A stretch of 40,035 nt of DNA from Amoebophrya sp. A120 (Eukaryota; Protista; Dinoflagellata): the NCBI GenBank assembly GCA_905178155.1, contig CAJINV010000025.1:406612-446646 (forward strand), given 5' to 3'. Below, one piece after another: positions 15,109 to 40,035 of this stretch (positions are counted from its first letter, which is position 1; each line of letters starts with the position of its first letter). Made by a program: the position numbers and the translations under genes. The notes below the pieces were generated by a model. It was not told where the DNA came from. It worked only from the letters and a program-made list of their open reading frames with translations, and ran no database searches.

Positions 15109-15149
15109 AGACGAAGAGGAGAAAATGTTTTAAATGAAAAACACGGCTA

Positions 15150-15406: not shown

Positions 15407-15444
15407 CGGCTTTACTGTCTACTACAACCCGTACGCCAGCGGCT

Positions 15445-17815: not shown

Positions 17816-20800
17816 ATGGCCGCCGCCAAAGCGAATGCGAACATGGCCCGACTACACAAGCACAGCGCGACTCTTCTCGGGGACCGCCTGTACGCAGCGG
17901 TGCGGATATGAAATGTAAAAATGTCTGGGTCTGGAAGAATGCAACATTTGTGATGCAGGTTTTCCATGACCCATGAGGCCGCGCATGCAGGACCTAGCAT
18001 GACAGATTCTGCGCGATCTCTCTCATGCCTTTCCTGCATGAGAAACTCCCTCCCGACTTGGTCAAAACTGGACGACTTTTGGTAATCATGCAACACAGAT
18101 TTTTGCATGCTTCAGATTTAGCATGACAAGTTGCATTCTTCCAGACCCAGACATTTTTACTATTGATAGCGGAGTGGCGACGGCAAATCCACGACATGCT
18201 CCTCCTCCTTACCTATGAACTGCAAAAGTGTCCTGCTGCTCGTATAAATGCATGACAAATCCCCTCAGCATGAGAAATAAAATTTGTAATGCGGATTTAC
18301 ATTGGGAAAAAAATTTGTAATGCACGACTGCAATACGAGTACTGTCACTGTGCGATACTTTTGCACAGGATATTACCCCGCCGATTTTTCAAGAAGCTGA
18401 AAAGCGGGACGAAACAGCTTTTCCTAAATTCTCGGTCACCGGCTGCGGCAGCGCGAGTAGGCGCGATATCTCCTCCCGACAGCGACGATCGGTTGCCACC
18501 GACACTGTACCGGGTGAAGAATATTGCATTTTCCGAGAAGCCGGGGAAAACCAGCAGGGAGGCGAGTGCGGCCGTGGGTAAAAATAGAGAGCAGGGTCCA
18601 GGAGCAAATTCCTATACCACCGATAGCACACCCACAGGTGATCCTTCCCCGCTATCGACTGTAAAAATGTCTGGGTCTGGAAGGGCCAAACTTGTGCTGC
18701 TGTATTTGGATGCTAAAAAAACCTGTATTGCATGACCAGCAAGAGGATTCAAATTTGGCTACGCGGAGACGGCATTTGTCTTTGTCATGCTGGATGCGCA
18801 TAGATAAGCGCTCAAAAAATCTGTGATGCTATGGCATACATCACAGACATCATGACTCATGAAAAATGTGCATGATAAAGTTGTGCTGTTCCAGACCCAG
18901 ACATTTTTGCATTTGATACCCGCCCGACGGAGCCAACATTTGTTCGGCACCGGTACTATTTTCCATCCCTGTCTACGGGCGGAACAAAAACACGCTGCTT
19001 CCGAGCACGCCCGTCGCGGTAGGAAATTGCAAATCTCTCTGAGTCTGGAAGAATGCAGAAGTTAGTCATACTGCTTTTGCATGACCGAGGACGGCTTGTA
19101 TGCAGGAGCAGGCGGCAAAATTTTTTTGTTTTCTCGACAGGGCATCTCATTAGCATTCCTGCATGAGAAATTCCCGTATTTGGGTGACAAAAGGTCGTCG
19201 TCGTGGATGAGAGATTTTTGTCTGTGCAACTGCTTTAGCTGGCCAGGCATGACAGATTTTTGTGATGTCTCTTAAAATGCGCGTCTTCACAAGTTTGAGT
19301 ATTCGCGCTTCAGACCTCCCAGATGACAGATTTGCAATGCATCGGCGTTCCTGAAACCCAACCAGGTGGTGCAGGTGTTGCCGCACGCGCTAAGGATCTG
19401 TGATGAGGAGCTAACGGAGGACAATTTGAGGAACTACAACTCGGGCATCGCCGGTTTGGAAAATGCAAAGTGGAAGCAGTTTTGGCTGGACACGCACCGA
19501 GGAGCAGGAGCCGCAGCCGCTTCCTCCTCTCCGTCCAGCTCGTCCTCTGTGGCGCCTGTAAATGTAATGAAGGACCACGGGGGCCAGCAAATGAGTTGTG
19601 AACAAGGAGGGAAAAAAAACCTCCCTGTGCAGACAGGCCACGAACCCGAAGTGGTAGAAGCAAGGACGAGCGAAACATCGTCAAGACGGGAAGGTGCAGA
19701 AACGCTTTCTCACCCCGCCCTCACTCCACCGTCTCCGTGGATCCCGGTTCGCATCGCGCCGGACGCCATGGAGGTGCTTACCATGCCGAACACGGTCGGC
19801 GGCATGACACTATCACGAGGAAAAACTCCCCCTCCCCATAATCTTCAAACGGAAAGTTTTCAGTACTGCTCTGTGGCGAGAGATCAGCTTTGTCCACGCA
19901 AGAAGGCAAGCAAAGATAAAGATAAAGTAATTTGCTCGCTTGCTTTTCTTGAGCGTACAGGGCAGGCGCAGCCTTACGGCGACGGACAAGCGCGGCGCGG
20001 ACGCGCCGCCGCTTCGCAGTGATCGAGAGGCGGCGAGGCCGGTGCGCTTCGATGGTCGTGCGTGCATTCCTGCAATCTTCGTCGCGGGGCAAAATTTTAC
20101 CCGTGCAGGCCGGCATTTTGCTGGCGGTTTTTTTGCCCGCGCTTTTTTGCCGTCGTGATGTTTTTAGCGAGGCTAATCTGGCGACCCTGCTTTCGCTGTG
20201 CCTTAGTAGCAAACCTACTTGAGGAGCCTACTCGCAGGGCCGTGGGAGCGAACCCACCCGAGCGCTCCACTTGCAGCGCCTTCAGAGCGAACCCGGCCGA
20301 GCAAGCCAAAAACGCAACAACAACGCAACAACAACTCCACAACAACTCCACAACAACTCCACAACAACTCGACAGCAACTCGACAGCAACTCGACAACAA
20401 CGCAACAACAACTCGACAACAACGCAACAACTACGCAACAACTACGCAACAACAACGCAACAACAACGCAACAACAACGCAACAACAACGCAACAACAAC
20501 GCAACAACAACGCAACAACAACCCAACAACAACCCAACAACATACAACTCAGCCCGTAGCCAAAAAAAAAGCCTGGCAAGGGCGGGAAAGCGTGCGCGCT
20601 CTCCTTTTTTTATCCACCCAAAAAAGTAAAAGGAGAGATATTCCGGGCGGTCCAACAAAAGCAGAGATATTCGGGGCGGTCCGGCAGAAGTGGAGACATT
20701 CGGAGCGGTCAAGCAGAAGGAGAGATATTCGGGGTGGTCAGGCGAAAGCGGAGATATTCGGAGCGGTCAGGCAAAAGTAGAGATATTCGCAGCGGCCGAA

Positions 20801-23800
20801 CCAGTAAAAGTAGAGATATTCGGGGCGGTCAAACAAAAGTAGAGATATTCGGGGCGGTCAGGCAAAAGTGGAGATGGGCGGTCGAGCAAGAGTAGAGAGA
20901 TTCGGGGCGGTCAGGCGAAAGCGGAGATACTCGGAGCGGTCAAGCAAGAGGAGAGATACTCGCAGCGGCCGAACAAGTAAAAGTAGAGATATTCCGGGCG
21001 GTCAAACAAAAGTAGAGATATTCGGGGCGGTCGGGCAAAAGTGGAGATATTCGGAGCGGTCAAGCAAAAATAGAGATACTCGCAGCGGCCGAACGCGTAA
21101 GCGTAGAGATATTCCGCGCGGTCGAACAAAAGTAGAGATATTCGGGGCGGTCATGCAAAAGTGGAGATATTCGGAGCGGTCAAGCAAGAGTAGAGATATT
21201 CGGGGCGGTCAGGCGAAAGCGGAGAAATTCGGAGCGGTCAAGCAAAAGTAGAGATATTCGCAGCGGCCGAACCAGTAAGAGTAGAGATATACCGGGCGGC
21301 CAAAGAAAAGTAGAGATATTCGGGGCGGTCGGGCAAAAGTGGAGATATTCGGAGCGGTCAGGCAAATAAAAGCAGAGATATTCGGGGCGGTCAGGCGAAA
21401 GCGGAGATATTCGGAGCGGTCAAGCAAAATTAGAGATATTCGCAGCGGCCGAACAAGTAAGAGGAAAGATATGCCGGGCGGTCAAACAAAAAGCAGAGAT
21501 ATTCGGGGCGGTCAGGCAAAAGCGGAGATATTCGGAGCGGTCAAGCAAGAGTAGAGATATTCGGGGCGGTCAGGCGACAGCGGAGATATTCGGAGCGGTC
21601 AAGCAAAAGTAGAGATATTCGCAGCGGCCGAACAAGTAAAAGTAGAGACATTCCGGGTGGTCATTCAAACAACAGTAGAGATATTCGGGGCGGTCAGGCA
21701 ACAGTGGAGATATTCGGAGCGGTCAAGCAAAAGCAGAGATACTCGGGGCGGTCAGGCGACAGCGGAGATATTCGGAGTGGTCAAGCAAGAGTAGGGATAT
21801 TCGCAGCGGCCGAACAAGTAAAAGTAGAGACATTCCGGGCGGTCAAACAAAAGAAGAGATATTCGGGGCGGTCAGGCAACAGTGGAGATATTCGGAGCGG
21901 TCGAGCAAAAGTAGAGACATTCGGGGCGGTCAGGCGAAAGCGGAGATATTCGGAGCGGTCTTCGGGGGGGGCGGTCAGGCAAAAGTGGAGATATTCGGAG
22001 CGGTCAAGCAAGAGTAGAGATATTCGGGGCGGTCAGGCGAAAGCGAAGATACTCGGAGCGGTCAAGTAAAAGTAGAGATATTCGCAGCGGCCGAACAAGT
22101 AAAAGTAGAGATATTCCGGGCGGTCAAACAAAAGAAGAGATATTCGGGGCGGCCCGCCAGGCAAAAGGGGAGATATTCGGAGCGGTCAAGCAAAATTTGA
22201 GATATTCGGGGCGGTCACGCGAGCGCGGAGATATTCGGAGCGGTCAAGCAAAAGTAGAGATATTCGCAGCGGCCCAACAAGTAAGAGTCGAGATATTCCG
22301 GGCGGTCAAACAGCAGCAGAGATATTCGGGGCGGTCAGGCAAAAGTGGAGATATTCGGAGCGGTCAAGCAAAAGTAGAGATATTCGGGGCGGTCAGGCGA
22401 GAGCGGAGATATTCGGAGCGGTCAAGCAAAAGGAGAGATATTCGCAGCGGCCGAACAAGTAAAAGTAGAGATATTGCGGGCGGTCCGTCAAACAAAGTTA
22501 GAGATATTCCCTCGGGGCGGTCAGGCAAAAGTGGAGACATTCGGAGCGGTCAGACAAAAGTAGAGATATTCGGGGCGGGCAGGCGACAGCGGAGATATTC
22601 GGAGCGGTCAAGCAACAGTAGAGATATTCGCAGCGGCCGAACAAGTAAAAGGAGAGAGATTCCGGGCGGTCAAGCAAAAGTAGAGAAATTCGGGGCGGTC
22701 AGGCAAAAGCGGAGATATTCGGGGCGGTCAGGCAAAAGTAGAGATATTCGGGGCAAGCGTAGAGATATTCGCAGCGGCCGAACAAGTAAAAGTAGAGATA
22801 TTCCGGGCGGTCAAACAAAAGGAGAGATATTCGGGGCGGTCAGGCAAAAGTGGAGATATTCCGAGCGGCCAAGCAAAAGGAGAGACTTTCAGGGCGGGCA
22901 GGCGAAAGAGGAGATATTCGGAGCGGTCAAGCAAAAGTAGAGAGATTCGCAGCGGCCGAACGAGTAAAAGGAGAGATATTCCGGGCGGTCAGACAAAAGT
23001 AGAGATATTCGGGGCCGTCCGGCAAAAGTGGAGATATTCGGAGCGGTCAGGCAAAAGTAGAGATACTCGGGGCGGTCAGGCGAAAGCGGCGACATTCGGA
23101 GCGGTCAAGCAAAAGTAGAGATATTCGCAGCGGCCGAACAAGTAAAAGTAGAGAGATTCCGGGCGGTCCGTCAAACAAAAGTAGAGATATTCGGGGCGGT
23201 CACTCACTCAGGCAAAAGGGGAGATATTCGGAGCGGTCAGGCAAAAGTAGAGATATTCGGGGCGGTCAGGCGAAGGCGGAGATATTCCTTCGGAGCGGTC
23301 AAGCAAAAGTCGAGATATTCGCAGCGGCCGAACAAGTAAAAGTAGAGATATTCCAGGCGGCCACTCAAACAAAAGGAGAGATATTCGGGGCGGTCAGGCA
23401 AAAGCGGAGATATTCGGAGCGGTCCAGCAAAAGTAGAGATATTCGGGGCGGGCAGGCGACAGCGGAGATATTCGGAGGGAGCGACCAAGCAAAAGTAGAG
23501 ATATTCGCAGCGGCCGAACAAGTAAAAGCTGAGATATTCCGGGCGGTCAAACAAAAGTAGAGATATTCGGGGCGGTCAGGCAAATAAAAGCGGAGATATT
23601 CGGAGCGGTCAGGCAAGAGTAGAGATATTCGGGGCGGTCAGGCGACGGCGGAGATATTCGGAGCGGTCAAGCAAAAGTAGGGATATTCGCAGCGGCCGTC
23701 CGAACAAATAAAAGTAGAGATATTCCGGGCGGTCAGACAAGTGTAGAGATATTCGGGGCGGTCAGGCAAAAGTGGAGACATTCGGAGCGGTCAGGCAAAA

Positions 23801-26800
23801 GCAGAGATATTCGGGGCGGGCAGGCGAAAGCGGAGATATTCGGAGCGGTCAAGCAAAAGTAGAGATATTCGCAGCGGTCGAACGAGCAAAAGTAGAGATA
23901 TTCCGGGCGGTCAAACAAAAGCAGAGATATTCGGGGCGGTCAGGCAAAAGTGGAGACATTCGGAGCGGTCAAGTAAAAGTAGGGACAGATACTCGGGGCG
24001 GTCAGGCGACAGCGGAGATATTCGGAGCGGTCAAGCAAAAGTAGAGATATTCGCAGCGGCCGAACCCGTAAAAGTAGAGATATTCCGGGCGGTCAAACAA
24101 AAGTAGAGACATTCGGGGCGGTCAGGCAAAAGTGGAGATATTCGGAGCGGCCAAGCGACCGTAGATATATTCGGGGCGGTCACGCGGAAGCGGAGATATT
24201 CGGAGCGGTCAGGCAAGTCAAGAGCAGAGATATTCGCAGCGGCCGAACAAGTAAAAGCTGAGACATTCCGGGCGGTCAAACAAAAGTAGAGATATTCGGG
24301 GCGGTCAGGCAAAAGTGGAGATATTCGGAGCGGTCAGGCAAAAGTAGAGATATTCGGGGCGGTCAGGCGAAAGCGGAGATATTCGGAGCGGTCAGGCAAA
24401 AGTAGAGATATTCGGGGCGGTCAGGCGAAAGCGGAGATATTCGGAGCGGTCAAGCAAAAGTAGAGATATTCGCAGCGGCCGTCTCCGAACAAGTAAAAGT
24501 AGAGAGATTCCGGGCGGTCAAACAAAAGTAGAGATATTCGGGGCGGTGAGGCAAAAGTGGAGATATTCGGAGCGGTCAGGCAAAAGTAGAGATATTCGGG
24601 GCGGTCAGGCGAAAGCGGAGATATTCGGAGCGGTCAAGCAAAAGTAGAGATATTCGCAGCGGCCGTCTCCGAACAAGTAAAAGTAGAGAGATTCCGGGCG
24701 GTCAAACAAAAGTAGAGATATTCGGGGCGGTGAGGCAAAAGTGGAGATATTCGGAGCGGTCAGGCAAAAGTAGAGATATTCGGGGCGGTCAGGCGAAAGC
24801 GGAGATATTCGGAGCGGTCAAGCAAAAGTAGAGATATTCGCAGCGGCCGTCTCCGAACAAGTAAAAGTAGAGAGATTCCGGGCGGTCAAACAAAAGTAGA
24901 GATATTCGGGGCGGTGAGGCAAAAGTGGAGATATTCGGAGCGGTCAGGCAAAAGTAGAGATATTCGGGGCGGTCAGGCGAAAGCGGAGATATTCGGAGCG
25001 GTCAAGCAAAAGTAGAGATATTCGCAGCGGCCGTCTCCGAACAAGTAAAAGTAGAGAGATTCCGGGCGGTCAAACAAAAGTAGAGATATTCGGGGCGGTG
25101 AGGCAAAAGTGGAGATATTCGGAGCGGTCAGGCAAAAGTAGAGATATTCGGGGCGGTCAGGCGAAAGCGGAGATATTCGGAGCGGTCAAGCAAAAGTAGA
25201 GATATTCGCAGCGGCCGTCTCCGAACAAGTAAAAGTAGAGAGATTCCGGGCGGTCAAACAAAAGTAGAGATATTCGGGGCGGTGAGGCAAAAGTGGAGAT
25301 ATTCGGAGCGGTCAGGCAAAAGTAGAGATATTCGGGGCGGTCAGGCGAAAGCGGAGATATTCGGAGCGGTCAAGCAAAAGTAGAGATATTCGCAGCGGCC
25401 GTCTCCGAACAAGTAAAAGTAGAGAGATTCCGGGCGGTCAAACAAAAGTAGAGATATTCGGGGCGGTGAGGCAAAAGTGGAGATATTCGGAGCGGTCAGG
25501 CAAAAGTAGAGATATTCGGGGCGGTCAGGCGAAAGCGGAGATATTCGGAGCGGTCAAGCAAAAGTAGAGATATTCGCAGCGGCCGTCTCCGAACAAGTAA
25601 AAGTAGAGAGATTCCGGGCGGTCAAACAAAAGTAGAGATATTCGGGGCGGTGAGGCAAAAGTGGAGATATTCGGAGCGGTCAGGCAAAAGTAGAGATATT
25701 CGGGGCGGTCAGGCGAAAGCGGAGATATTCGGAGCGGTCAAGCAAAAGTAGAGATATTCGCAGCGGCCGTCTCCGAACAAGTAAAAGTAGAGAGATTCCG
25801 GGCGGTCAAACAAAAGTAGAGATATTCGGGGCGGTGAGGCAAAAGTGGAGATATTCGGAGCGGTCAGGCAAAAGTAGAGATATTCGGGGCGGTCAGGCGA
25901 AAGCGGAGATATTCGGAGCGGTCAAGCAAAAGTAGAGATATTCGCAGTGGCCGAACGAGTAGCAGCAGAGATATTCCGGGCGGTCAGACAGCAGTAGAGA
26001 TATTCGGGGCGGTCAGGCAAAAGCGGAGATATTCGGAGCGGTCAAGCAAGAGGAGAGATATTCGGGGCGGTCACGCGAAAGCGGAGACATTCGGAGCGGT
26101 CAGGCAAAAGTAGAGATATTCGCAGCGGCCGAACAAGTAAAACTATCTAGACAGAGATATTCCGGGCGGTCGAACAAAAGTAGAGACATTCGGGGCGGTC
26201 AGGCAAAAGTGGAGATATTCGGAGCGGTCGAGCAAAAATAGAGATATTCGGGGCGGTCAGGCGAAAGCGGAGATATTCGGAGCGGTCAAGCAAAAGTAGA
26301 GACTGATATTCGCAGCGGCCGAACAAGTACAAGTAAAAGTAGACATATTCCGGGCGGTCGAACAAAAGTAGAGATATTCGGGGCGGTCAGGCAAAAGCGG
26401 AGATATTCGGGGCGGTCAAGCAGAAGTAGAGATATTCGGGGCGGTCAGGCGAAAGCGGAGATATTCGGAGCGGTCAAGCAAAAGGAGAGATATTCGCAGC
26501 GGCCGAACAAGTAAAAGTAGAGACTGATACTCCGGGCGGTCAAACAAAAGTAGAGACATTCGGGGCGGCCAAGCAAAAGCGGACACATTCGAAGCGGTGA
26601 AGCAAAAGCAGAGATATTCGGGGCGATCACGCGAGAGTGGAGATATTCGGAGCGGTCGAGCAGAAGTAGAGTCAGTCCGTTGATTTTGCGTTCCAATGAA
26701 TGTGGGGCCATTTCTGGAAGACCAGGCCCCAGTTTCAGAAGCTTGCTATTGAGTAAAGGGGAGGGGGGTCTTTCATTTTAACATTTGCCCAAGCTGCACT

Positions 26801-29800
26801 ACGTCGACGGGATGATCAAAGCGGAGCACTTTTTTCCTGCAGGGGTAGAATTCAATCAGGAGGGGCTTCCACTTCGTGGGGCGGCACCCTCCGCGCATGT
26901 CGTCTTCGAGCCCGCCGCCCTGCAGTATCAAGTGCAAATATGTCTGGGTCTGGAAGAGTGTAGACTTGTCACGCAGATTTTCCATGACCCACAATGTCTG
27001 GAATGCGGGACCTAGCATGACAGACTCTGCGAGGTCTCTGTCATGCCTATCCTCCATGAGAAACTCCCTCCCAAGTTGGTCGAAAGTGGACTGCTTTGGG
27101 CTCTCATGCAACACAGATCTTTGCATGATTCACATTTAGAAGCATGATAAGTTGCAATCTTCCAGACCCAGACATATTTGCAATCCATATGCAGATGAGC
27201 GACGCGATCTACGCCCGGCTGCCCTTCACGTATCAAATGTAAAAACGTCTGGGTCTGGAAACTTGTGATGCTGGGTGGCGTATCATGAGGAGGCCACAAG
27301 AGCTGGCCAAGCATGACAAGTTTTTGAGCTCCTAGGTGTTGCCTATTCCGCATGACAAACTGCGTTTCTGCATGACAGAAAAATGAGGCTCTTGGGTAAC
27401 ATGCATGACAGATTTAAGAGTCATGCCAGACAAGCATGACGAACACACATTCTTCCAGACCCAGACATTTATTTTTACATTTGATATCACGCCCATGCAC
27501 GCCATCTACCAGACCGTGCTTGACTTTGTCGAGCGTAAGTTCTTCCCCGCACAAAGAAGTCAGGAACCACCCGCGTCGGCCCCCGGCGGCGGTAGTGCAA
27601 TTGTAACAGGAAGCACTACAACTGCTACTACTGCAGCTAGTACCCCCGCCGCGAGTACGAGAACTGCCACGACCCCGCCGCCCGTCTGGTCAGAGAAGCT
27701 CCGCAGAAAAGACAGCAGAGCGGCTGGCGTAGACGCTACCGGCTCCGAGCACCAGAGCCAGATGACTTATGATCTTCTACATGAAAGTCTCACGGAAGCG
27801 CAGCGGTCCTGGCTTTCCTTCCGAGTGTGGTTTGACGACATGGCGGCGGAATACTACGACGGCGTGATTGCGTATGGAAAGAAAAAAATTCGTCGCAGTC
27901 CCTAATACTATAATCTTGCAACCTGTGCATGACAGGAGATTCACCTGGCGTTACAGCTTTTTCTATGTATCATTCCGCAAACACAAGGGGAGTCGCGTAT
28001 GAAGTCTAGTCTTGCCTTGTGATGCTGCATTTCTACCCATGATGAGAGACAGCTTCGTGTTAGAAGAATCCGTATGAGTCGTGATCCTGATCGTGACAAA
28101 TTTTGTTTCGTGCATATTGCGGGGCCGGGCCGGTCGCGTGGTAGTCCTGGTCAAACGCAGTACATTCTGCAGCGCGCGCCCGGAAATGTGCCCGAGCGAA
28201 TGGAGATTACTGAGGAGCTATCAAATGTAAAAATGTCTGGGTCTGGAAGAATCCGAAATTTCTTATGCTGTTTTTGCATGACACAGAATGTCTGTCATGG
28301 AAGCCCTAGCATCACAGATCTTGCCTTCCTGATACCTATTCCGCATGACAAATGCCCTCCACGCGTAGCACAAACCGGACTCCTTTTGCTGGTCATGCAC
28401 TACAGAATTTTTTAGAGTCCAAAGTTAGCATCACAAGTTCCAACCTTCCAGACCCACACATTTTTGCAATCCATAGGAGCAGATTGTTTTTGACCAGGAC
28501 AGAAAGCAGCGGCACAAATTCTTCGGAAGGATCGGTCTCTTTTTCACGTTTTATCAAATGCAAAGATGTCTGGGTCTGGAAGAATGCAACTTGTGATGCT
28601 GCGTTTCGATTCCAAAAAAATCTGTATTGCATGAGCAGAAAAGGAAATGCAATTTTTGCTACGCGGAGCGGGCATTTGTCAGGCGGAATAGGCACCGAGA
28701 AGCCCTCAAAAAATCTGTGATGCTGGGGCACGCATCGCAGACGTCATGGCTCATGCAAAACGTGCGTGACAAGTCTTAGAACCTTCCAGACCCAGACACT
28801 TTTGCACTTGATACTTTCTGCTACTCGACAGTGGCCTACTTGCGGAATCGGCGGAGCCGAAACATGGCCGTGCGGGACTGCGTACGGCAAGAAAGGGCAA
28901 AAATGCAGGACGAAGAGGATCAACATCTTGTAGCGGACAGAAGACGCGACCGCACGGAGTGGAACGACAAAAACGGCGAAACACTCACAAAAGCGGATCG
29001 TGGCAATGACCCAGAAGCAGTAGAGCGTATCCCTCGCAAACATAATCGATCTGGATCTGAGAGATTGTAGATGGATTCTAATTCTTGCAGAAGTTTCTAA
29101 ATGCAGCTTTTCAGTGCGCCATGAAACGGTCGCTCAACTTGAGGACCGCTAGTGGGCAAGACCTTGTTTATTTCCACTCATGATCACGCAGCACGGAAGA
29201 TTTTTGTGTCCTGACGCTGCAAGGGGAATGTCACAGGACTGGATGAACATCTTTCAGACAGCCCGGGAAGTACTAGATGTTTGCAATGCATAGAACAAGA
29301 GGTCTATGGAGAGAAAAAAGTTTGTCACAGTCACTAAGTTGCAGGTTTTGCATTGCAAATTTTTTTTGCATCACAACTTCTTCTTGTATTGCAGAAACAC
29401 TAGGGAAATCCCTTATGAAGTGTGGCTGTGATGCATTTTTACGCATGACAGACAATTTTGTCTTGCAAAAATGCCCATGGGTGATCGTGGCGAACTTTTT
29501 TCTTTTCATAAGGTCCTGCACTTCGACCAGTTTCCAGCTCTTCTCCGGCCCCCGGTGGAAGCGGATCCATTTTACCTGAGCGAGATATGAATTGCAAAAG
29601 TGTCTGGGTCTGGAAGAATGGCAGACTTGTCATGCAGGTTTTCCATGACCCATCAGGTCTGGTATGTAGGACATAGCATGACAGATTCAGATTCTGTGAG
29701 AGCTCTATCATGCCTATCCTGCATGAGAAACTGCCTCGCGATTAGGTCAAAAGTGGACAGCTTGTGGTAATCATGCAACACAGGTGTCTTTTTACATGAT

Positions 29801-30607
29801 TCAGATTTAGCATGACAAGTTGCATCCTTCCAGACCCAGACACTTTTACATTTGATACGAGAAGCTGCGCCACCAAAGCAGCGGGTTTAACTGGCGCAAT
29901 ATCCAGTGCAAATCATATGTCCAGGTCTGGAAAGTTGGAACTTGTCATGCTAGCTGTACATCCCTGGGTGGAAATCTGTATTGCATACCCAACACAAGTC
30001 GCAGCCTCTCTTTTCATGCGACAAAACGTAGTTTCTCGTGCGGACCACTGCACTACGAGAAAGCGTTTTAGCAAGTTGTCATGCTGGGGCGCAATCGGAC
30101 GTGTTTCCATCATCTACATTGATTTTAGTATCACAAGTTCTCTCCAGAGGACCCAGACATGCTTGCAATTGATACGCAACGCTTTGGTGCCTGTCATCGG
30201 ATTCAACTTCGCCAATCTGCTCTTCGTCTACCCCTTTGCCGTCAATGGGACCTATCCATTGCAAATATATTTATCTGGGTTGGGAAAAGTGGACCGTGTG
30301 TTGCATGTCTTGCATTCTTGAAAACTCTGTGTTGCACAGCCAGCAAAGTCGCTACTTTTTCGTCACGCAAGAACCACGCAGTGCGTCATGCGTGCTACGC
30401 ATCAGACGGCGTGAACTGAAGTCGTCATGCTTGGCTGCACTTGAAAGCGCCAGTGACTTATCCATACTTCAGCATCACAAATTTCCAGAGGATCCAAACA
30501 TATTTGCAATGCATAGGGTCTACTTCTTTGCCATGCCGGCAGTGACGGCCGGGTTCGTTACCGGCAGTTTGGGACTGATCCTTTGGCACGACTTGTTTTA
30601 CCTGTGA
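17816..30607 (+). CDS. Hypothetical protein ~722 aa with hydrophobic (predicted TM) C-terminal segments, split by 15 TIR elements. Exons 17816-17906, 18174-18213, 18378-18652, 18924-19019, 19349-19810, 26789-26925, 27195-27230, 27492-27872, 28122-28218, 28481-28551, 28819-29027, 29298-29304, 29516-29585, 29863-29899, 30180-30252, 30521-30607
   Basis: Each element+5-nt deletion keeps one open frame (2169 nt total): MAAAKANANMARLH...FFGRIGLFFTFCYSTVAYL...NALVPVIGFNFANLLFVYPFAVNGTYFFAMPAVTAGFVTGSLGLILWHDLFYL*. The join across 19811-26788 is the weakest, so this could be two genes. Confidence 0.72.
17907..18168. mobile_element. Family A TIR element acting as intron
   Basis: Family A TIRs; repeat GCGGA. 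Confidence 0.92.
18214..18372. mobile_element. Family C TIR element acting as intron
   Basis: TATGAACTGCAAAAGTGTC...GATACTTTTGCACAGGATA; repeat TTACC. Confidence 0.88.
18653..18918. mobile_element. Family A TIR element acting as intron
   Basis: Family A TIRs; repeat CCCGC. Confidence 0.92.
19020..19343. mobile_element. Degenerate family A element acting as intron
   Basis: TAGGAAATTGCAAATCTCTCTGAGTCTGGAAGA...CAGAC..CCAGA..TTTGCAATGCATC; flanks CGCGG/GGCGT; frame restored. Confidence 0.65.
20311..20550. repeat. CAA-derived 11-bp minisatellite (CAACAACAACG and variants)
   Basis: Directly visible; produces spurious TTQQQRNNNA ORFs in all frames. Confidence 0.92.
20621..26671. repeat. ~6-kb satellite array: 29-bp monomer AAAAGTAGAGATATTCGGGGCGGTCAGGC in a 6-monomer 178/184-bp higher-order repeat
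   Basis: Five 29-bp monomers plus one 33-bp CGCAGCGGCCGAACAAGT variant per unit. The GTCTCC marker recurs every 184 bp from 24481 to 25769. Confidence 0.97.
26926..27189. mobile_element. Family A TIR element acting as intron
   Basis: Family A TIRs; repeat TGCAG. Confidence 0.93.
27231..27486. mobile_element. Family A TIR element acting as intron
   Basis: Family A TIRs; repeat TCACG. Confidence 0.93.
27873..28116. mobile_element. Family D-like element acting as intron
   Basis: TATGGAAAGAAAAAAATTCGTCGC...GTGACAAATTTTGTTTCGTGCATA; repeat TTGCG. Confidence 0.8.
28219..28475. mobile_element. Family A TIR element acting as intron
   Basis: Family A TIRs; repeat GGAGC. Confidence 0.92.
28552..28813. 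mobile_element. Family A TIR element acting as intron
   Basis: Family A TIRs; flanks CGTTT/CTTTC (the duplicate copy near 39834 has CGTTT). Confidence 0.9.
29028..29292. mobile_element. Highly degenerate family A element acting as intron
   Basis: TATCCCTCGCAAACATA..TCTGGATCTGAGAGA...TTTGCAATGCATA; 265 bp (family length); flanks GAGCG/GAACA; frame restored. Confidence 0.62.
29305..29510. mobile_element. Family D element acting as intron
   Basis: TATGGAGAGAAAAAAGTTTGTCACAGTCAC...GTGATCGTGGCGAACTTTTTTCTTTTCATA; repeat AGGTC. Confidence 0.87.
29586..29857. mobile_element. Family A TIR element acting as intron
   Basis: Family A TIRs; repeat CGAGA. Confidence 0.92.
29900..30174. mobile_element. 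Family A TIR element acting as intron
   Basis: Diverged family A TIRs; repeat CGCAA. Confidence 0.87.
30253..30515. mobile_element. Family A TIR element acting as intron
   Basis: TATCCATTGCAAATAT...ATATTTGCAATGCATA; flanks GGACC/GGGTC. Confidence 0.82.
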
Positions 30608-31673: not shown

Positions 31674-34600
31674 ATGAGTGCTGTGGAATCGACAGTACCC
31701 GCCAACAAGAGCTGCAAAATTAAGCCGCTCCCGCAAGGTTTGCGTCGCACGAATGCGAAAAAGCCGCCGCCGCCCGCTGCAAAGCATAACCTGTCGCTCC
31801 ACTATCCTGTGCAAAAGTATCGCACTCGTAGTAATTGCAGTCATGCATTACCAATCTCGTTCCCAAGGCAAATCAGCATGACAAATTGCATTTGTCATGC
31901 TGAGGGAATTTGTTATGCAATTTATACTAGTACGATACTTTTGCAGTTCATATCCACGTGACTCTGCCAACTACTACGAGGAGGAACATCACTGCCCCCG
32001 CTGCACAAAATCAACAACCGGCGACTTCGGTTGTCGTGCCGGCCGCGGCTGAAACTCAAACACAAACTACAGCTGTTGTGAACAATAATAATCAAACTAC
32101 GACTACTTCTTCTACTACTACTGCAACGACGAGTACGGCTTTCTCGAAGGCGACATCCAAGGCTGCCGGAGGGCCACCAAGTCTTGGAACGGTAGCTGCA
32201 CCCGCCCAACCCGAAGTAGAACTACCCGCCGAGCCCATTCCCGCCGTCTCCAAGGCCCGGGGCCCGCCTCCGCCGGGAGATGAAAACAGTACTAAACCGT
32301 CTACTTCCGACGGAGCAGCTGCACTAGGTGTAGACAACGACGACCTGCAGGCGCTACCCAAGGCGGTGCCGAAGGCGGGCTATCAACTGTAAATATCGCT
32401 CTGGGTCTGGAAGATTAAAACTTATCATGCTCAATCTGAATGATGCAAAAATCTGTGATATTGCGTGAGTACCAAAAGCCGTCCGCTTTTGACCAAATTG
32501 AGAGGGAGTTCCTCATGCAGGAAACGCATGATAGAGACCGCAAAGAATCTGTCATGCTAGGTCTCGCATTGCAGACCTCATGGCTCATGCAAAACGTGCA
32601 TGGCAAGTCTCAGAATCTTCCAGACTTAGACATATTTGCACTGCATACGGGCGGTTTGGTCGCGAAGCTCGCCGCGGTGGGCGTGAACGTGGAGCAAGCT
32701 GTATGCAAGAGAAAAAAGAAAAACTGTGTAAGCGTGACTTTGTGTTGCACACGCACGCAAAGCAATTCTCACTTGCTATGCTCAACATGCATTTTTACAG
32801 GCTAAAGTAGTCTCATATGTGTTTACTTTTATTTCATCGCGCACTATAATTTCTTGCGCACTAGACAGGCTTTCCATTACCTTTTTATTTCACTCGGGGT
32901 CCCTTTTGACCCCGAATAGATTTGAAAAGCCGTCCATGCCGTGCGGGTTCGAAAGGGGGTGCCTGGGTTCAAATTTTTATGGTTTTTGCTTGACAAACTC
33001 AATTATCTCAAGCTTTTCTTATTTCGCACCTGTTTCCGTCACCTCCTTAATTCATTCGGGGTCTCTTTTGACCCCGAATAGATTTGGTCCGCCCATACCG
33101 TGCGGGTTCGAAAGGGAATGCCTGGCTTCAAGTTTTTAGGGTTTTTGCTTGACAAACTCAATTATCTCAAGCTTTTCTTATTCCGCACCTGTTTCCGTCA
33201 CCTTCTTATTTAATTCGGGGTCTCTTTTGACCCCGAATAGATTTAAGAATCTGTCCATACCGTGCGGGTTCGAAAGGGAATGCCTGGCTTCAAGTTTTTA
33301 GGGTTTTTGCTTGACAAACTCAATTATCTCAAGCTTTTCTTATTCCGCACCTGTTTCCGTCACCTTCTTATTTAATTCGGGGTCTCTTTTGACCCCGAAT
33401 AGATTTAAGAATCTGTCCATACCGTGCGGGTTCGAAAGGGAATGCCTGGCTTCAAGTTTTTAGGGTTTTTGCTTGACAAACTCAATTATCTCAAGCTTTT
33501 CTTATTCCGCACCTGTTTCCGTCACCTTCTTATTTAATTCGGGGTCTCTTTTGACCCCGAATAGATTTAAGAATCTGTCCATACCGTGCGGGTTCGAAAG
33601 GGAATGCCTGGCTTCAAGTTTTTAGGGTTTTTGCTTGACAAACTCAATTATCTCAAGCTTTTCTTATTCCGCACCTGTTTCCGTCACCTTCTTATTTAAT
33701 TCGGGGTCTCTTTTGACCCCGAATAGATTTAAGAATCTGTCCATACCGTGCGGGTTCGAAAGGGAATGCCTGGCTTCAAGTTTTTAGGGTTTTTGCTTGA
33801 CAAACTCAATTATCTCAAGCTTTTCTTATTCCGCACCTGTTTCCGTCACCTTCTTATTTAATTCGGGGTCTCTTTTGACCCCGAATAGATTTAAGAATCT
33901 GTCCATACCGTGCGGGTTCGAAAGGGAATGCCTGGCTTCAAGTTTTTATGGTTTTTGCTTGACAAACTCAATTATCTCAAGCTTTTCTTATTCCGCACCT
34001 GTTTCCGTCACCTTCTTATTTCATTCGGGGTCTCTTTTGACCCCGAATAGATTTAAGAGTCTGTCCATACCGTGCGGGTTCGAAAGGGGGTCCCTGGGTT
34101 CACGTTTTTATGAGTTTTGCTTGACAAACTCAATTTTCTGAGGCTTTTCTTAGTCCGCATCTGTTTCCGTCACCTTCTTATTTCATTCGGGGTCCCTTTT
34201 GACCCCGAATAGATTTGGTCCGCCCATACCGTGCGGCTTCAAAAAGGGATGTCTGGGCTCAAGTTTTTGTAGTTTTTGCTTGACAAACTCAATTATCTCA
34301 AGCTTTTCTTATTCCGCCCCTGTTTCCTTCCCCTTCCTATTCCATTCGGGGTCCATTTTGACCCCGAGTAGATCTGAAAATCCCTCCATACCGTGCGGGT
34401 TCGAAACGGGATGCCTGGGCTCAAGTTTTTATAGTTTTTGCTTGACAAGCTCAATCTTCTGAAGCTTTTCTTCTTCCGCACCTGTTTCCGTCCCCTTCCT
34501 ATTTAATTCGGGGTCCATTTTGACCCCGAGTAGATCTCGAAATCCCTCCATACTGTGCGGGTTCGAAAAGGGATGTCTGGGCTCAAGTTTTTGTAGTTTT

Positions 34601-37600
34601 TGCTTGACAAACTCAATTATCTCAAGCTTTTGTTATTCCGCCCCTGTTTCCGTCGCCTTCTTATTGCGCTCGGGGTCTTTTGTGACCCCGAATAGATTTG
34701 AAAAGCCCACCACGCCGTGCGGGTTCGAAAGGGGATGTCTGGATTTGAGTTTTCGTGATAGTTTTTAGTATTGCTATAGTATACTACGCTAACACAATTT
34801 CATTCCTGGATGAGCTAACGAGGTAGGGACCGTGCAGCAGCAGCTCGGAGATGGCTCGTCTGGCGCGGGGGCCACCGGACGACAAGGACAAGATCCATCT
34901 GCGCAGCAGGAAGCGGACCGTAATACCAGCGCAGCAGCCGATATCACGGGAAAAAAGTGTTACAGTTACACATTTGTTGGAGTTTCTGCATCGCAAAGTT
35001 GCTCGACATGGCCAAGAAAACCTGTGATGCGCAGACTACAAGGGAAAACACGAGTGAAATGAGGCTGGCAACCATTTCCTGCATGACAAAGGTTGTCTGT
35101 CTTGCTGGTCTTCCATCAGAGTGTGTAACTGTAACATTTTTTTCGCAGGATAGCCGAGGACAACCTGGCGTTGTTTCGGAATATCACCAGACAGGTCACC
35201 ATATCCTGTGCAAAAGTATCGCACTCGTATAAATGCAAGTCATGCATTACAAATCTTGTTCCCAAGGCAAATCTGCATTACAAATTTTATTGGGTAAAAA
35301 GGACAAATCCCAAGAAGACTAGCAAAATCTCAAGAAGAAATGGACAAATCTCAAGAAGAAATGGGCAAATCTTAGGGTTTGGGTTTGGGGTCTAGGGTTT
35401 GGGGTTTCTGGTCGTCGGCCAGGGCAGCCGCCGCCGGCCGGCCGGCCGGCGGCGGCTGCCCTGGCCGACGACTCTCTCTTCTCGTTTTTGGAAGGTGGCG
35501 GCCCCGCGCCCTGCCCGCCTTCGTGTTTGTTCTGTCGCTTCCTTGGGGTTCTCCTGGTTGGCGCTGGCCAGCTCCTTGGCCGGCGGGCCTCGGGATTGGG
35601 GCACACAGCGCAGCCGCGCAGAACTTGGCGGCTTGGTCCCTCACCCGGGTCCCCCTCGCAGGGAGACCGCGGACGGGCCGCGGGGTGTCCTTGTGTATTT
35701 TTCCAGGCCAGGATGCCGTCGTGCATCATGTTATGCATGATGGAGTGTTGCTTGCAAAAAAACACAGTAGATTCAGAAGAACCGAATGCCCGCGAATAGC
35801 TTTGACGTGGCCCCGCACACCGTCGTGCATAACGTTCTCGCTCGCCAAAACATCTCCTTCTCTCCGCCCTCTGCTTTCCATCTGCTTTTCGCCTTCTCTC
35901 TGCCGTCTTCTTTCGATCTGCTTTTCGCCTTTTCTTTGCCCTCTTCCTCGATTCGATTCCAACGTAGAATAATGCGTTTCCACAGGCAGGAAGTTTTCAG
36001 TGAAAACTTCCTGTCTGTGAACTATACCATGGTGTATAAAGTTCTCCCTGAAAAATCCGTAACCATTCTTCTTGAGATTTTTAACAAGTCAAGCAATTTG
36101 AAAATTAAGCATTTTCTTTTTGGGGTGGGTTCTTCTTGAGCTTTTCTTCTTGAGATTTGTCCACTTTAACCAATTTTATTTCTCATGCTGAGGAAATTTG
36201 TCATGCATTTATACGAGTGCGATACTTTTGCAGTCCATACACCAGACGCGCCACGTCGGGGCTATGACCTGCTCAAACGTTACAACCTCAAACGTTACTC
36301 AATAGGATTTGGGTTTTGTATTGCATGACGAGCATGACAGACTCGGACAGCATTCCATTTTCTGCAATACAAATTTCGCCAAATTGTAGTGCGGATTGGG
36401 GCGACTCCAGAACTTGTCATGCGCATCAATCCTACGAGAGTCGGCTACTACGTAATGCACTTCTTGCAGCACACATTCCAGATTCTATGATAACCGATTT
36501 GAGATTGTAACACCTGAGCAGGTTATAGGGGCTGTACAAGCATGAGGAGTGGCTGGCCCGGCTATCAAATGTAAAAGTGTCTGGGTCTGGAGGATTCTGA
36601 AACTTGTCATGCATATTTTGCATGAGTCGTGATGTCTGTGATGCATGCCCTGGCATCACAGATTTTTTCTGGGCTTCTTGATCTTGATGCCTAGTCCGCA
36701 TGACAAATGCCCTCTCTCCGAAGCAAAAAATACACTCATTTTGCTGCTCATGCAATGCAGGTTTCTTTGGAATCCAAATGCAGCATCACAAGTTGCATTT
36801 TTCCAGACCCAGACACTTTTGCACTCGATACCGGCGGCATGACGACAAGGTCCGACGGATCGAGGAAGAAAAGCGCCAGGCACGTATCCTGTGCAAAAGT
36901 ATCGTAAAAGACTTCTACGTAGAAATCGCATCACAAATAGAAGCGCAGCATGACAGCGATAGAACTTGTAATTCTGATTTAATACCTCGGGAAGAAGATT
37001 AACATTTGCAGCCACGCATGTTCGCGATGTATTATTGGAACGAGCTGTACGATAGTACTTTTGCAATGCATAGCCCGACGCGCGGAACGGTGGTACAATA
37101 ACGATCGTAACAGAGAGGGCCGCGCCAGAAGTCGGCGAAACGACTCGCGAGGACGCAGGAGCTACGGGCGGGGGAATAAAAAAGATGACCGGGACGACCA
37201 CCGGGACAAAAATGTGAGCAGGAGCAGGGTACGGCGATTGTCCAGTCGCGATCGTCGGGACTCACGAGGCGGAAAAGGACGGGACAGGTATACTGAAGAT
37301 AAAGCAAGAGAACTTTGTTTTTCTTCTTATAAAAACCGTATATTTATTGTCATGCCTAAAAGTAGAAAGAGAAAAAGAACCAGTCATGCGTGATCTCAAC
37401 TACTTCTACACTTAGAATTTGTACTACTTATCACAGAAGCAGCTACCGCGATACAACGGCCCGAACTACTGGTGCAAACTCCCGCCGTCGTGAGGAAGAT
37501 GACAGCAGGGATGACAACTACCACAACGACAACAAAAACCGCTGCTCCCGGAGTCGTGGACGTGGTGGTCGTGGTGGCGGTGTGAATGGCAATGACAACG

Positions 37601-38794
37601 GTAAAAAAAAGGATAAAAAGCGAAACTACTCCGAGGACGAAAGCGAGAAGAATTACTCTACCAGCAAGAAGAACAAGAAACCTGCTCCCTCTTCGTCCAT
37701 ATGCATTGCAAAAATGTCTGCGTCTGGAAGATTGGTGCGGTTTGTCATGCTTGTCTGGCATGACCAAAAAATTTGTGATGCGTGTCAACGAAGAGACCCT
37801 TTTGCCTGTCATGCAAAAACGCAGTTTGTCATGCGAGAAACGCAATACAAGGAAGTGCAGATATTTCTCATGCTTGGCTGTGCATTACAGAGCATTCACT
37901 ATTCCCAACGCAGCATTACAAGTTTCCAGACCCAGACACTTTTGCATTTGATAGTCCACCGACGAGAGCAAGAAAAGAAGTGGCACTGGTGCTCCCGCGG
38001 ACAGGTAGAAGGATCTTAAGGAAAACTGTTTCTGGGTTTTATTTAACTCTGTCATGCAGAAATTGAACGTAGACAACGGCCCAATTCTAAGCATAATGTC
38101 GCTTGTCAACATCCGATGACTAGAGAATAACAAAAACCCTAGGAAAAAACTCGTGCACTATCAAATCGCTCCTGTGTACAAATACCTGTGCGTCCTGGCA
38201 AACACTTTTGCAGTCATGATCTAATGCTGAGAGCGCTTGAAGCGCTATAATCCGCCGAAAAAAAGAACAAAACTCTGGAAATTTCAACTTCTCTTCTGGG
38301 TATTAAACTAACAGGTCGACCAAAAAGCACAAGAAGGAAAAAGTAAGCAGGACATCAACATCTGACAGCCGGGAACAGAGTAACAGCAAGCGGAAGGGCC
38401 GTGGGGGAGACAAGAAGCAGAGTTTATTGTGAGGAAACGTTTTCGTGATCCCTCCTCCGCTTTTTGAAAAGGTGGTCTAGTACAACTTGTGAAAATTTGT
38501 GATGCTGATTTATTATCTGTGGCCACAAAGCGCACGCCTGTCCGTCTTGCACGAGGTTCCTGAGTTGTAAACCGCAAACATCCAGCATACACAAGTTTGC
38601 GTTTGAGTACGGGGAAGTAGATGGGGGATCAGCATTTTTGATTTTGATACAGCAGCAAGCAGAAAAACGACAGTCGAGGCCGAGATGACAGTCGAGGACG
38701 GGACGACAGTCGAGGCCGAGACGACAGTCGAGGCCGAGATGACAGTCGAGGACGAGATGACAGTCGAGGACGGGACGACAGTCGTGGGAGATAA
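31674..38794 (+). CDS. Hypothetical low-complexity protein ~544 aa (T/P/A-rich N-terminal half, R/S/D/K-rich C-terminal half ending in DSRGRD repeats). Exons 31674-31802, 31958-32380, 32653-32701, 34818-34941, 35158-35201, 36245-36262, 36533-36562, 36836-36884, 37078-37287, 37437-37699, 37959-38004, 38315-38424, 38655-38794
   Basis: 1635 nt open after removing 10 TIR elements (+5 nt each) and two GT-AG introns. Start codon uncertain, as the frame is open back to ~31596. Confidence 0.75.
31803..31952. mobile_element. Family C TIR element acting as intron
   Basis: TATCCTGTGCAAAAGTATCGCACTCGTA...TACTAGTACGATACTTTTGCAGTTCATA; repeat TCCAC. Confidence 0.92.
32381..32647. mobile_element. Family A TIR element acting as intron
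   Basis: Family A TIRs; repeat CGGGC. Confidence 0.9.
32702..34812. mobile_element. Family D-like element expanded to 2.1 kb by a satellite, acting as intron
   Basis: TATGCAAGAGAAAAAAG...ACACAATTTCATTCCTGGATG; flanks AGCTG/AGCTA; removal gives in-frame EQA-DEVGTVQQQ. Confidence 0.72.
32865..34770. repeat. 162-bp (159-bp variant) tandem satellite, ~12 copies, each with hairpin ATTCGGGGTC-N6-GACCCCGAAT
   Basis: GACAAACTC marker at 32992, 33151, 33313, 33475, 33637, 33799, 33961, 34123, 34282, 34444 (variant) and 34606. Confidence 0.96.
34942..35152. mobile_element. Family D TIR element acting as intron
   Basis: TATCACGGGAAAAAAGTGTTACAGTTACA...TGTAACTGTAACATTTTTTTCGCAGGATA; repeat GCCGA. Confidence 0.93.
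35202..36239. mobile_element. Family C TIR element acting as intron, hosting a nested element
   Basis: TATCCTGTGCAAAAGTATCGCACTCGTATAAATGCA...TGCATTTATACGAGTGCGATACTTTTGCAGTCCATA; repeat CACCA. Confidence 0.92.
35292..36171. mobile_element. Nested non-autonomous element with 9-bp TSD (Mutator-like)
   Basis: TSD AATTTTATT (35283-35291, 36172-36180). TIR GGGTAAAAAGGACAAATCCCAAGAAGA / TCTTCTTGAGATTTGTCCACTTTAACC. Subterminal TCTCAAGAAGA repeats. Confidence 0.88.
36263..36527. mobile_element. Family E TIR element acting as intron
   Basis: TATGACCTGCTCAAACGTTACAACCTCAAA...TTTGAGATTGTAACACCTGAGCAGGTTATA; repeat GGGGC. Confidence 0.9.
36563..36830. mobile_element. Family A TIR element acting as intron
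   Basis: Family A TIRs; repeat CCGGC. Confidence 0.93.
36885..37072. mobile_element. Family C TIR element acting as intron
   Basis: TATCCTGTGCAAAAGTATCG...TACTTTTGCAATGCATA; flanks GCACG/GCCCG. Confidence 0.83.
37288..37436 (+). other. Putative canonical GT-AG intron
   Basis: ACAG|GTATAC...TCACAG|A; AT-rich; joins two RS-rich ORF pieces in frame. Confidence 0.65.
37700..37953. mobile_element. Family A TIR element acting as intron
   Basis: Family A TIRs; repeat GTCCA. Confidence 0.92.
38005..38314 (+). other. Putative canonical GT-AG intron
   Basis: ACAG|GTAGAA...CTAACAG|G; removes an in-frame TAG and continues K/R/S-rich coding. Confidence 0.62.
38425..38649. mobile_element. Degenerate family B element acting as intron
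   Basis: TATTGTGAGGAAA..CCCTCCTCC...GGGGGATCAGCATTTTTGATTTTGATA with B-type interior; flanks GAGTT/CAGCA; the +5 rule restores the frame. Confidence 0.65.
38669..38791 (+). repeat. 18-bp coding tandem repeat, ~7 copies, encoding DSRGRD
   Basis: GAC AGT CG. GG. (C/A)G. GA(C/T); all variation between copies is synonymous in this frame. Confidence 0.9.
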
Positions 38795-39788: not shown

Positions 39789-40035
39789 ACAAGTCTTAGA
39801 ACCGTCCAGACCGAGACACTTTTGCACTTGATGCGTTTTGCTACTCGACAGTGGCCTACTTGCGGAATCGGCGGAACCGAAACGTGGCCGTGCAGGACTG
39901 CATACGGCAAGAAAGGGCAAAAATGCAGGACGAAGAGGATCAACATCTTGTAGCGGACAGAAGACGCGACCGCACGGAGTGGAACGACAAAAACGGCGAA
40001 ACACTCACAAAAGCGGATCGTGGCAATGACCCAGA
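39789..40035 (+). repeat. Near-identical duplicate of 28769-29015 (right TIR of a family A element plus following exon), running off the window
   Basis: Same sequence at an offset of 11020 bp with a few substitutions. Confidence 0.93.

What the first reader, a model, noticed from the sequence alone, without database searches (positions are those of the whole stretch)
19020..38654. The 'TIR + 5 nt' ruler holds even when the direct repeat has decayed
Seen: the two flanks differ at 19020 (CGCGG/GGCGT), 28552 (CGTTT/CTTTC), 29028 (GAGCG/GAACA), 30253 (GGACC/GGGTC), 38425 (GAGTT/CAGCA) and 19811 (GACAC/TTTGC). Removing the element plus exactly 5 nt still restores the frame. Inference: cut sites are measured from the stem base rather than found by repeat homology. 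These mismatched sites also reveal where in the repeat the cut falls. Caveat: the ends of the most degenerate elements were placed by eye.
Basis: partly seen in the sequence, partly recalled or inferred. Interest (0 to 1): 0.75.

Follow-up and report, generated by a model that had tools for sequence, protein, structure and literature searches.

The report
Fixed-offset splicing of parasite hairpin introns
Transposon-like hairpin inserts in these genes are missing, together with exactly five extra bases, from assembled likely-RNA sequence even where the flanking five-base repeat has decayed, which likely means the cell cuts at fixed distances from each insert's ends, a candidate rule for a known but unexplained kind of intron.

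Summary
The six flank pairs are as described. The elements fit the TAT…ATA introner elements published for Amoebophrya A120 (PMC7789003); the organism label is my inference. Frame restoration alone is weak: +2, +8 and +11 restore it too. The retained 5-mers at six mismatched sites share one cut: 1 nt before the 5' TAT and 4 nt after the 3' ATA (chance 0.034; no single site pins it). All nine predominant A120 non-canonical classes in the paper's Table S4 begin N-T, as this predicts. Repeat homology and RT slippage are unlikely. 'Measured from the stem base' is too strong: cuts follow the terminal motifs when the inner helix shifts by 1 nt or the ends fold unpaired. Most likely a relaxed spliceosome reading N|UA and an A seven bases from the 3' cut. 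Against: two runs carry an unexplained +6 nt that fits a competing GT-AG junction. The scan noted a similar intron in another dinoflagellate.

The parts
19020..19343 (+). Introner element, TAG…ATC ends, flanks CGCGG/GGCGT; predicted intron 19019-19347
   Evidence: Joint 19015>19345, skips 329 = 324+5, ambiguity 3, in 3 of 4 runs; retained 5-mer is a left/right hybrid
19811..26783 (+). Introner element of 6,973 nt with nested satellite, TAT…ACA ends, flanks GACAC/TTTGC; predicted intron 19810-26787
   Evidence: Pieces end at 19810 in 4 of 4 runs; the listed loose end continues at 26789 in 3 of them; piece starts at 26788: removal 6,978, left 5-mer kept
28552..28813 (+). Introner element, flanks CGTTT/CTTTC; predicted intron 28551-28817
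   Evidence: X3 contig resumes at 28816; summed removal of 27873+28219+28552 = 778 = each element+5: cut after repeat position 2-4
29028..29292 (+). Introner element, flanks GAGCG/GAACA; predicted intron 29027-29296
   Evidence: X3 piece ends at 29026; the remaining 190 nt of the contig end exactly at the branch point under element+5; a 267-nt GT-AG alternative fits the left side but not this sum
30253..30515 (+). Introner element, flanks GGACC/GGGTC; predicted intron 30252-30519
   Evidence: Indirect: contig branch points at 30254 and 30520; 4 of 5 compatible junctions remove 268 = 263+5, one removes 265; an unspliced contig at the 3' junction (30225-30549 listed, depth 6.9) is also present
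38425..38649 (+). Introner element, flanks GAGTT/CAGCA; predicted intron 38424-38653; would pin the offset alone
   Evidence: Contig length maps to 38750 under the rule, a repeat border, but to 38754, also a border, under a 234-nt GT-AG intron
32702..34812 (+). Additional decayed element (2,111 nt, nested 162-bp tandem array), TAT…ATG, flanks AGCTG/AGCTA
   Evidence: X3 loose end behind 32700 continues at 34817: removal element+5, cut at or before repeat position 4
17907..18918 (+). Three intact-repeat elements (17907-18168, 18214-18372, 18653-18918), controls
   Evidence: Joints skipping 267, 164 and 271 nt, each element+5
26926..28475 (+). Four intact-repeat elements (26926, 27231, 27873, 28219); 26926 and 28219 each have an in-frame GT-AG alternative 6 nt shorter
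   Evidence: Sums 530 and 778 in X3; alternatives listed, mapped
29305..30174 (+). Three intact-repeat elements (29305, 29586, 29900)
   Evidence: Sum test
31803..31952 (+). Intact-repeat element
   Evidence: Adjacent contig pieces 31797 / 31953: 155 = 150+5
17816..30607 (+). Host gene B, 722 aa after removing 15 elements; function not found
   Evidence: no credible homologue of one exon
31674..38794 (+). Host gene C, 526-aa low-complexity RS/RD-rich protein; 10 elements plus two GT-AG introns placed by me (37288-37436, 38005-38368)
39789..40035 (+). 96% copy of 28769-29015 whose right flank reads CGTTT, identical to the left flank of 28552: shows the duplication was once perfect
15150..15406 (+). 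Untested discriminating site: intact repeat lies 1 nt out of register with TAT (38818-38985 is similar)
   Evidence: exons not covered

Best explanation
These are TAT…ATA hairpin elements with a 5-bp flanking duplication that are missing, with exactly five more bases, from likely-RNA contigs, most likely because a relaxed spliceosome cuts 1 nt before the 5' TAT and 4 nt after the 3' ATA without reading the duplication. Steps: (1) a TIR transposon inserts and duplicates 5 bp (shown as pattern; mechanism inferred). (2) The intron is N-TAT…ATA-NNNN; 1+4 equals the duplication, so a new insertion is removed without trace (removal length shown, ~0.9; constant -1/+4 inferred, ~0.75). (3) One copy of each duplicated base is then intronic and can mutate freely, giving the decayed flanks (inferred). 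(4) The long hairpin would bring the ends together, while each cut is set locally: N|UA read as a donor with a free first base, and the A at -7 serving as branch point at a fixed distance from the 3' cut (inferred, ~0.5).
For: Removal lengths. Intervals for the cut within the repeat: 19020 {1-4}, 19811 {4,5}, 28552 {2-4}, 29028 {3,4}, 30253 {4,5}, 32702 {0-4}; only 4 is shared; random offsets share one value in 3.4% of 200,000 draws. Farhat Table S4: 9 of 9 predominant A120 non-canonical classes start N-T; 9 of 9 in A25 start TT, where the repeat starts TTA, so both strains would have +2 T, +3 A. Mismatches fall at all five repeat positions (5,3,4,3,5 in 36 window elements). Terminal changes are asymmetric by transcript direction in 104 oriented locus elements plus 38 window elements: outer two bases changed 1 time at 5' and 8 times at 3'; third base 5 times at 5' and 0 at 3' (Fisher p = 0.003, post hoc). 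Cuts follow terminal motifs when the inner helix is 1 nt off. Fixed branch-to-AG spacing has spliceosomal precedent (PMC2483917), and so does a spliceosome adapted to non-GT/AG ends (PMC13326754).
Against: All RNA evidence is from contigs of one sample and one study, labelled RNA only by guess; most downstream sites rest on one run (X3). No site pins offset 4 alone; 30253 is indirect with one 265-nt alternative; 38425 is untested. X5 and X7 contigs hold 1,126 nt after 19810 against 1,120 in X3; a GT-AG junction 6 nt shorter at 26926 or 28219 would put their ends exactly on X3's branch point, so canonical sites may compete. No single position shows significant asymmetry (lowest p 0.057); in fetched loci alone the outer-base count is 1 vs 3; L085 has a 5' AAT and L113, by eye, a 5' GAT; window elements were hand-picked. 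U1 snRNA was not detected in A120. No lariat evidence. Table S4 ends depend on how the aligner placed ambiguous junctions.
Confidence: 0.6

Rival explanations
1. Same -1/+4 register, but set by a non-spliceosomal endonuclease plus ligase that measures from the paired TAT/ATA helix end, as proposed for Euglena nonconventional introns.
For: Intron first and last bases are free (all four first bases and 13 last dinucleotides in 38 elements). Long end-to-end stems in most elements. U1 snRNA not detected. In Euglena, spacer length from a paired motif is critical (PMC12501133). Four of eight 3' terminal changes are A>G, which keep a U-G pair.
Against: TAT/ATA predicted unpaired or mispaired at 19020, 19811, 29028 and 38425; pair-breaking changes (5' TAG/TAC, 3' ATC/ACA) occur while wobble-keeping 5' TGT and 3' GTA do not; inner helix off by 1 nt without change in removal.
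Confidence: 0.25
2. Removal is element+5, but the cut slides within the repeat from site to site, or nearby GT-AG sites are used at many elements.
For: Only intervals are observed. Farhat Fig. 3 legend calls the splice sites variable relative to the hairpin. In-frame GT-AG alternatives exist at 4 of 5 short sites and at 38425. Unexplained +6 nt in X5/X7.
Against: Six intervals share one value (p = 0.034); the 311-nt GT-AG at 19020 was not seen; 19811 and 28552 have no in-frame GT-AG near their ends; N-T starts in Table S4.
Confidence: 0.1
3. The junctions are reverse-transcription slips across hairpins with direct repeats (falsitrons), or are guided by repeat homology.
For: Hairpin plus short direct repeat is the falsitron signature (PMC8240250); all data here are cDNA-type.
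Against: Exact removal at 19811 with 1/5 identity over 7 kb; single contigs lack up to ten elements at once and read one ORF; little or no cover inside unique parts of elements, e.g. 19124-19322 depth 0 in 4 of 4 runs.
Confidence: 0.03
4. The elements are excised from DNA (empty alleles or programmed elimination), not from RNA.
For: The runs are RNA only by guess; the cross-run check of joined forms was not given.
Against: DNA-like run X1 holds contigs running through whole elements with no other letters (27459-28243, 28986-29332); the joined runs cover exons and leave long intergenic stretches empty.
Confidence: 0.02

Closest known systems
Non-canonical introner elements of Amoebophrya sp. 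A120 (Farhat et al. 2021, PMC7789003; abstract, sections 10-12, 16, 32, supplement passages and part 3 of 5 read; figures not seen)
   Same: Inverted repeat starting TAT, seven looser bases, then a run of A; 3-5-nt direct repeats over the exon/intron borders; about 240-nt mean length; non GT-AG ends.
   Different: The paper calls splice sites variable relative to the hairpin and leaves the border unknown; here one register (-1/+4) fits all tested sites and does not need the repeat.
Euglena nonconventional introns (PMC12501133; abstract, sections 8 and 12 read)
   Same: Works like: cuts at fixed spacer lengths from complementary terminal motifs, free terminal bases, MITE-like origin.
   Different: CAG/CTG motif with 3-nt and 5-6-nt spacers and a purine at the exon start; here TAT/ATA with 1-nt and 4-nt spacers. 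Unrelated lineage.
Fritillaria borealis transposon-derived non-GT/AG introns (PMC13326754, abstract and section 30; PMC11282704, parts 1-3 of 5)
   Same: Mass TIR/TSD-derived introns removed by an adapted spliceosome.
   Different: Those keep preferred ends (AG-AC, AG-AT) and use divergent U2AF; here first and last bases are free.
Introners of Micromonas, Aureococcus, Symbiodinium, Polarella (PMC9860276 and PMC12130899, passages)
   Same: TIR transposons whose insertion plus splicing leaves mRNA length unchanged.
   Different: They carry or co-opt GY/AG sites from the duplication; these ignore its sequence.
Fixed branch-to-AG introns of Trichomonas, Giardia, Yarrowia (PMC2483917, passages)
   Same: 3' cut at a fixed short distance from a branch motif (2 or 4 nt between motif and AG), bracketing the -7 A proposed here.
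   Different: They keep ACTAAC and a terminal AG; here neither, and branching is untested.

Membership tests
Amoebophrya A120 introner elements | Terminal inverted repeat starting TAT + 7 nt + three or more A | tested here: met
   37 of 38 window elements start TAT; A at positions 11-13 in 34-36 of 38
Amoebophrya A120 introner elements | 3-5-nt direct repeat across the exon/intron border | tested here: met
   5 nt; 25 of 36 in-register window elements perfect; 133 of 163 family elements
Amoebophrya A120 introner elements | Removed from transcripts at non GT-AG ends | tested here: met
   runs are RNA by guess
Amoebophrya A120 introner elements | Repeated family | tested here: met
Amoebophrya A120 introner elements | Match to the paper's family HMMs / strain identity | not testable with these tools
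   No genome held; organism names coded
Euglena nonconventional introns | CAG/CTG motif with N3 and N5-6 spacers | tested here: not met
   Ends are N-TAT…ATA-NNNN
Euglena nonconventional introns | Excised as circles | not testable with these tools
   No intron-RNA data
U2-type spliceosomal introns | GT/GC…AG ends | tested here: not met
   Predicted intron ends: first base C13 A10 G9 T6; AG last in 2 of 38
U2-type spliceosomal introns | Lariat at a branch adenosine | not testable with these tools
   -7 A unchanged in 104 of 104 and 38 of 38, which is also a TIR base
Non-autonomous TIR DNA transposons (MITE-like) | TIRs and constant-length target duplication | tested here: met
Non-autonomous TIR DNA transposons (MITE-like) | Cognate transposase; empty ancestral sites | not tested
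   No homologue of gene B found
Falsitrons (RT artefacts) | Junction inside an intact direct repeat | tested here: not met
   19811 (1/5) and 19020 (3/5) joined exactly

The most novel reading that the evidence does not exclude
This lineage has a second splicing code with no fixed terminal bases: the spliceosome reads a transposon's inverted repeat as N|UA at the 5' end and branches at its -7 A, cutting 4 nt past the repeat, so the splice geometry (1+4) equals the integrase's 5-bp stagger and every insertion, anywhere and in either orientation, is a perfect intron at birth.
Probability: 0.4. Interest if true: 0.85.

Novelty: new variant of a known kind. Interest (0 to 1): 0.6.

Why it matters
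How Amoebophrya removes tens of thousands of non-GT-AG introns is open: the genome paper left the borders undefined and asked how they are spliced. A fixed -1/+4 register would give exact borders for most of them, argue against a reverse-transcription artefact, explain why the duplications may decay and why the elements could spread through coding sequence, and name the bases (+2, +3, -7) and the products (lariat or circle) to test. It parallels the spacer rule shown in Euglena. It can be checked genome-wide with existing RNA-seq. The elements themselves are known, which caps the score.

Tried and rejected
Frame restoration as proof of +5: rejected, modulo 3 only (across 145 locus elements +2, +5, +8 score alike, 321-329 vs 259-271). 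Laying DNA run X1 with the RNA runs swamped the joint table (15 of 520 rows shown, all repeat-to-repeat), so that stretch was read from pieces, loose ends and lengths. No listed holder was on record as RNA. Gene A exons and elements 14241, 14603, 15150, 15445, 16304 had no junction cover. Homologue searches with the 19360-19809 exon: none at E<=0.001; three low-complexity hits, not used. Pfam on six window exons: only Exostosin_GT47 in gene A passes its cut-off; on nine locus exons none passes, so orientation rests on an ORF rule that was right in 12 of 12 window calls and called 112 of 145. First pairing of 11416 with 11795 was wrong; its end is 12279 with an intact repeat. Dropped before the asymmetry count: 8 of 171 elements failing the end filter, 33 of 145 not oriented, 8 of 112 with fewer than 4/5 flank identity. 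Strict invariance of +2 T was considered and dropped (L085, L113). No paper stating the -1/+4 register was found in searches; Roy et al. 2023 (Curr Biol) was seen only as a reference, and Figs 3 and S19-S23 of PMC7789003 are pictures I could not see: they may already show this register.
Full report
What the window is. The window is eukaryotic, with genes broken by many ~150-380-nt elements bounded by inverted repeats. I curated 38 by hand. Their ends read TAT…ATA with an A-run at positions 11-13 and a 5-nt flanking repeat. This matches the description of introner elements in the parasitic dinoflagellate Amoebophrya A120 (PMC7789003). No genome is held and run names are coded, so 'A120 or a close relative' is an inference.

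Observation. The six flank pairs are present as written. The 19811 element ends at 26783, 6,973 nt away, past a 29-bp satellite. Element+5 gives ORFs of 722 and 526 aa. The frame does not single out 5: +2, +8, +11 work equally; at 30253 another frame also runs to 725-728 aa; at 38425 GT-AG introns of 231 or 234 nt give 589-590 aa. In-frame GT-AG alternatives exist near 19020, 29028, 30253 and 38425, not near 19811 or 28552. The duplication length itself is firm: in 163 elements found by inner family cores in the window and 131 fetched loci, 133 have a perfect 5-nt repeat, with 0.92 identity at length 5 and 0.23-0.34 at other lengths.

Transcript evidence. Four contig sets guessed to be RNA, all one sample, were laid on 13950-19900. 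Joints skip 267, 164, 271 and 329 nt at 17907, 18214, 18653 and 19020, each element+5. The 19020 joint is in 3 of 4 runs and keeps a hybrid 5-mer; the 311-nt GT-AG alternative is not listed. At 19811 pieces end at 19810 in 4 of 4 runs and continue at 26789 in the 3 loose ends shown: 6,978 nt removed, left 5-mer kept. On 26670-32860 (runs X1, X3, X9, X10) the joint table was swamped, but one 1,465-nt X3 contig lies in pieces whose coordinates are all reproduced by the model, as is its end at the branch into an unspliced 30253 copy. This fixes sums: 26926+27231 = 530, 27873+28219+28552 = 778, and 29028+29305+29586+29900 through a 190-nt remainder. The piece after 28552 starts at 28816; that before 29028 ends at 29026. 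For 30253, 4 of 5 junctions compatible with both branch points remove 268 nt. 31803 loses 155 = 150+5, and a seventh decayed element, 32702-34812, loses element+5. DNA-like run X1 has contigs running through whole elements.

Where the cut falls. Number of left-repeat bases kept: 19020 1-4, 19811 4-5, 28552 2-4, 29028 3-4, 30253 4-5, 32702 0-4. Only 4 is common; independent random offsets share a value in 3.4% of draws. The intron is then N-TAT…ATA-NNNN. Independent support: in Table S4 of PMC7789003 all nine predominant A120 non-canonical classes start GT, CT, AT or TT, though aligner placement can bias this. A 96% copy of the 28552 right end at 39789-40035 keeps the flank CGTTT, equal to the left flank, so that duplication was perfect and decayed; one of its two changes would be intronic, the other synonymous.

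Ruler from what? Not from the repeat. Not strictly from the helix either: at 19020 the 5' terminus is 8 nt from the inner motif instead of 7, at 19811 the 3' terminus 17 instead of 18, and removal still equals element+5 from the terminal triplets. Predicted folds leave those triplets unpaired at 19020, 19811 and 29028, and at 38425 the ends do not pair. Changes in the terminal triplet are skewed by transcript direction: across 104 oriented locus elements and 38 window elements the outer two bases changed once at the 5' end and eight times at the 3' end, the third base five times at 5' and never at 3' (Fisher p = 0.003). A DNA transposase or plain pairing would treat both ends alike (inference). 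The pattern is post hoc, small, not significant at any single position, and has exceptions (L085; L113 by eye).

Mechanism. I commit to a relaxed spliceosome: the hairpin joins the ends, +2 U and +3 A serve as a donor with a free first base (A25's TTA-RR start would be the same at offset 0), and the A at -7 is a candidate branch point with a fixed distance to the 3' cut, between the spacings in Yarrowia and Trichomonas (PMC2483917). Shown: removal length and intervals. Inferred: constancy (~0.75) and the machinery (~0.5). The main rival is a Euglena-like endonuclease-ligase ruler (PMC12501133), helped by the undetected U1 snRNA. RT slippage (PMC8240250) is unlikely given 19811.

Results against. 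One sample; RNA by guess; contigs show only majority forms. X5 and X7 have 1,126 nt after 19810 where X3 has 1,120; a GT-AG junction 6 nt shorter at 26926 or 28219 would end them on X3's branch point, so canonical sites may compete at some intact elements. An unspliced 30253 contig (depth 6.9 beside about 20) suggests partial retention.

Novelty. The elements are known. I found no statement of a fixed register in searches or in passages of PMC11282704, PMC12130899, PMC9860276, PMC11453091 and PMC12005148; PMC13326754 does not mention Amoebophrya. The genome paper says the sites vary; its figures were not visible to me and Roy et al. 2023 was not read. Earlier scan notes: none for this place, one similar intron in another dinoflagellate, two unrelated sequence hits. 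Verdict: a real, probably unreported rule for a known intron class; interest 0.6.

Noticed in passing
window 20624-26671 and 20307-20548: A 6-kb 29-bp satellite (184-bp higher-order unit) and a CAACAACGCAA array sit inside the 19811 element, which is still removed exactly.
   Followed up: partly
window 32871-34753: 162-bp tandem array (11.7 copies) inside the 32702-34812 element.
   Followed up: partly
window 11794-12252 and 35376-35475: Nested inserts inside elements 11416-12279 and 35202-36239 share a 69-nt piece (84%): telomere-like GGTTTAG repeats followed by a GC-rich hairpin, a perfect 31-bp stem at 35411-35472.
   Followed up: partly
window 39789-40035: 96% duplicate of 28769-29015: the right end of an element and the following exon of gene B, downstream of gene C.
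   Followed up: yes
window 26932-27194 and 28227-28482: In-frame GT-AG introns 6 nt shorter than element+5; either would explain the extra 6 nt in X5 and X7 contigs.
   Followed up: partly
window 12280-15108: Gene A, an Exostosin GT47 glycosyltransferase-like gene split by elements; no exon cover in four runs over 13950-15108.
   Followed up: partly
window 17648-17815: X3 contig extends at least 168 nt upstream of gene B's ATG, a likely 5' UTR.
   Followed up: no
window 2508-3474, 9673-9802, 816-983: Further tandem arrays (201-bp, 12-bp TAGAAGGTATTT, 19-bp) in the gene-poor left part.
   Followed up: no
L085:293-554 and L113:64-332: Elements whose transcript-5' end appears to read AAT or GAT with perfect 5-nt repeats; L085 has a 10-nt direct repeat on that strand. 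Tests of whether +2 T is needed.
   Followed up: partly
oriented elements in L001-L131: Duplication positions 1 and 4 are G/C-rich (76 of 104 each), a possible insertion-site preference.
   Followed up: no
window 32400-32457: Run X9 holds about 97 reads matching only part of the 32381 element with three differences and a different flank: a related element expressed elsewhere.
   Followed up: no
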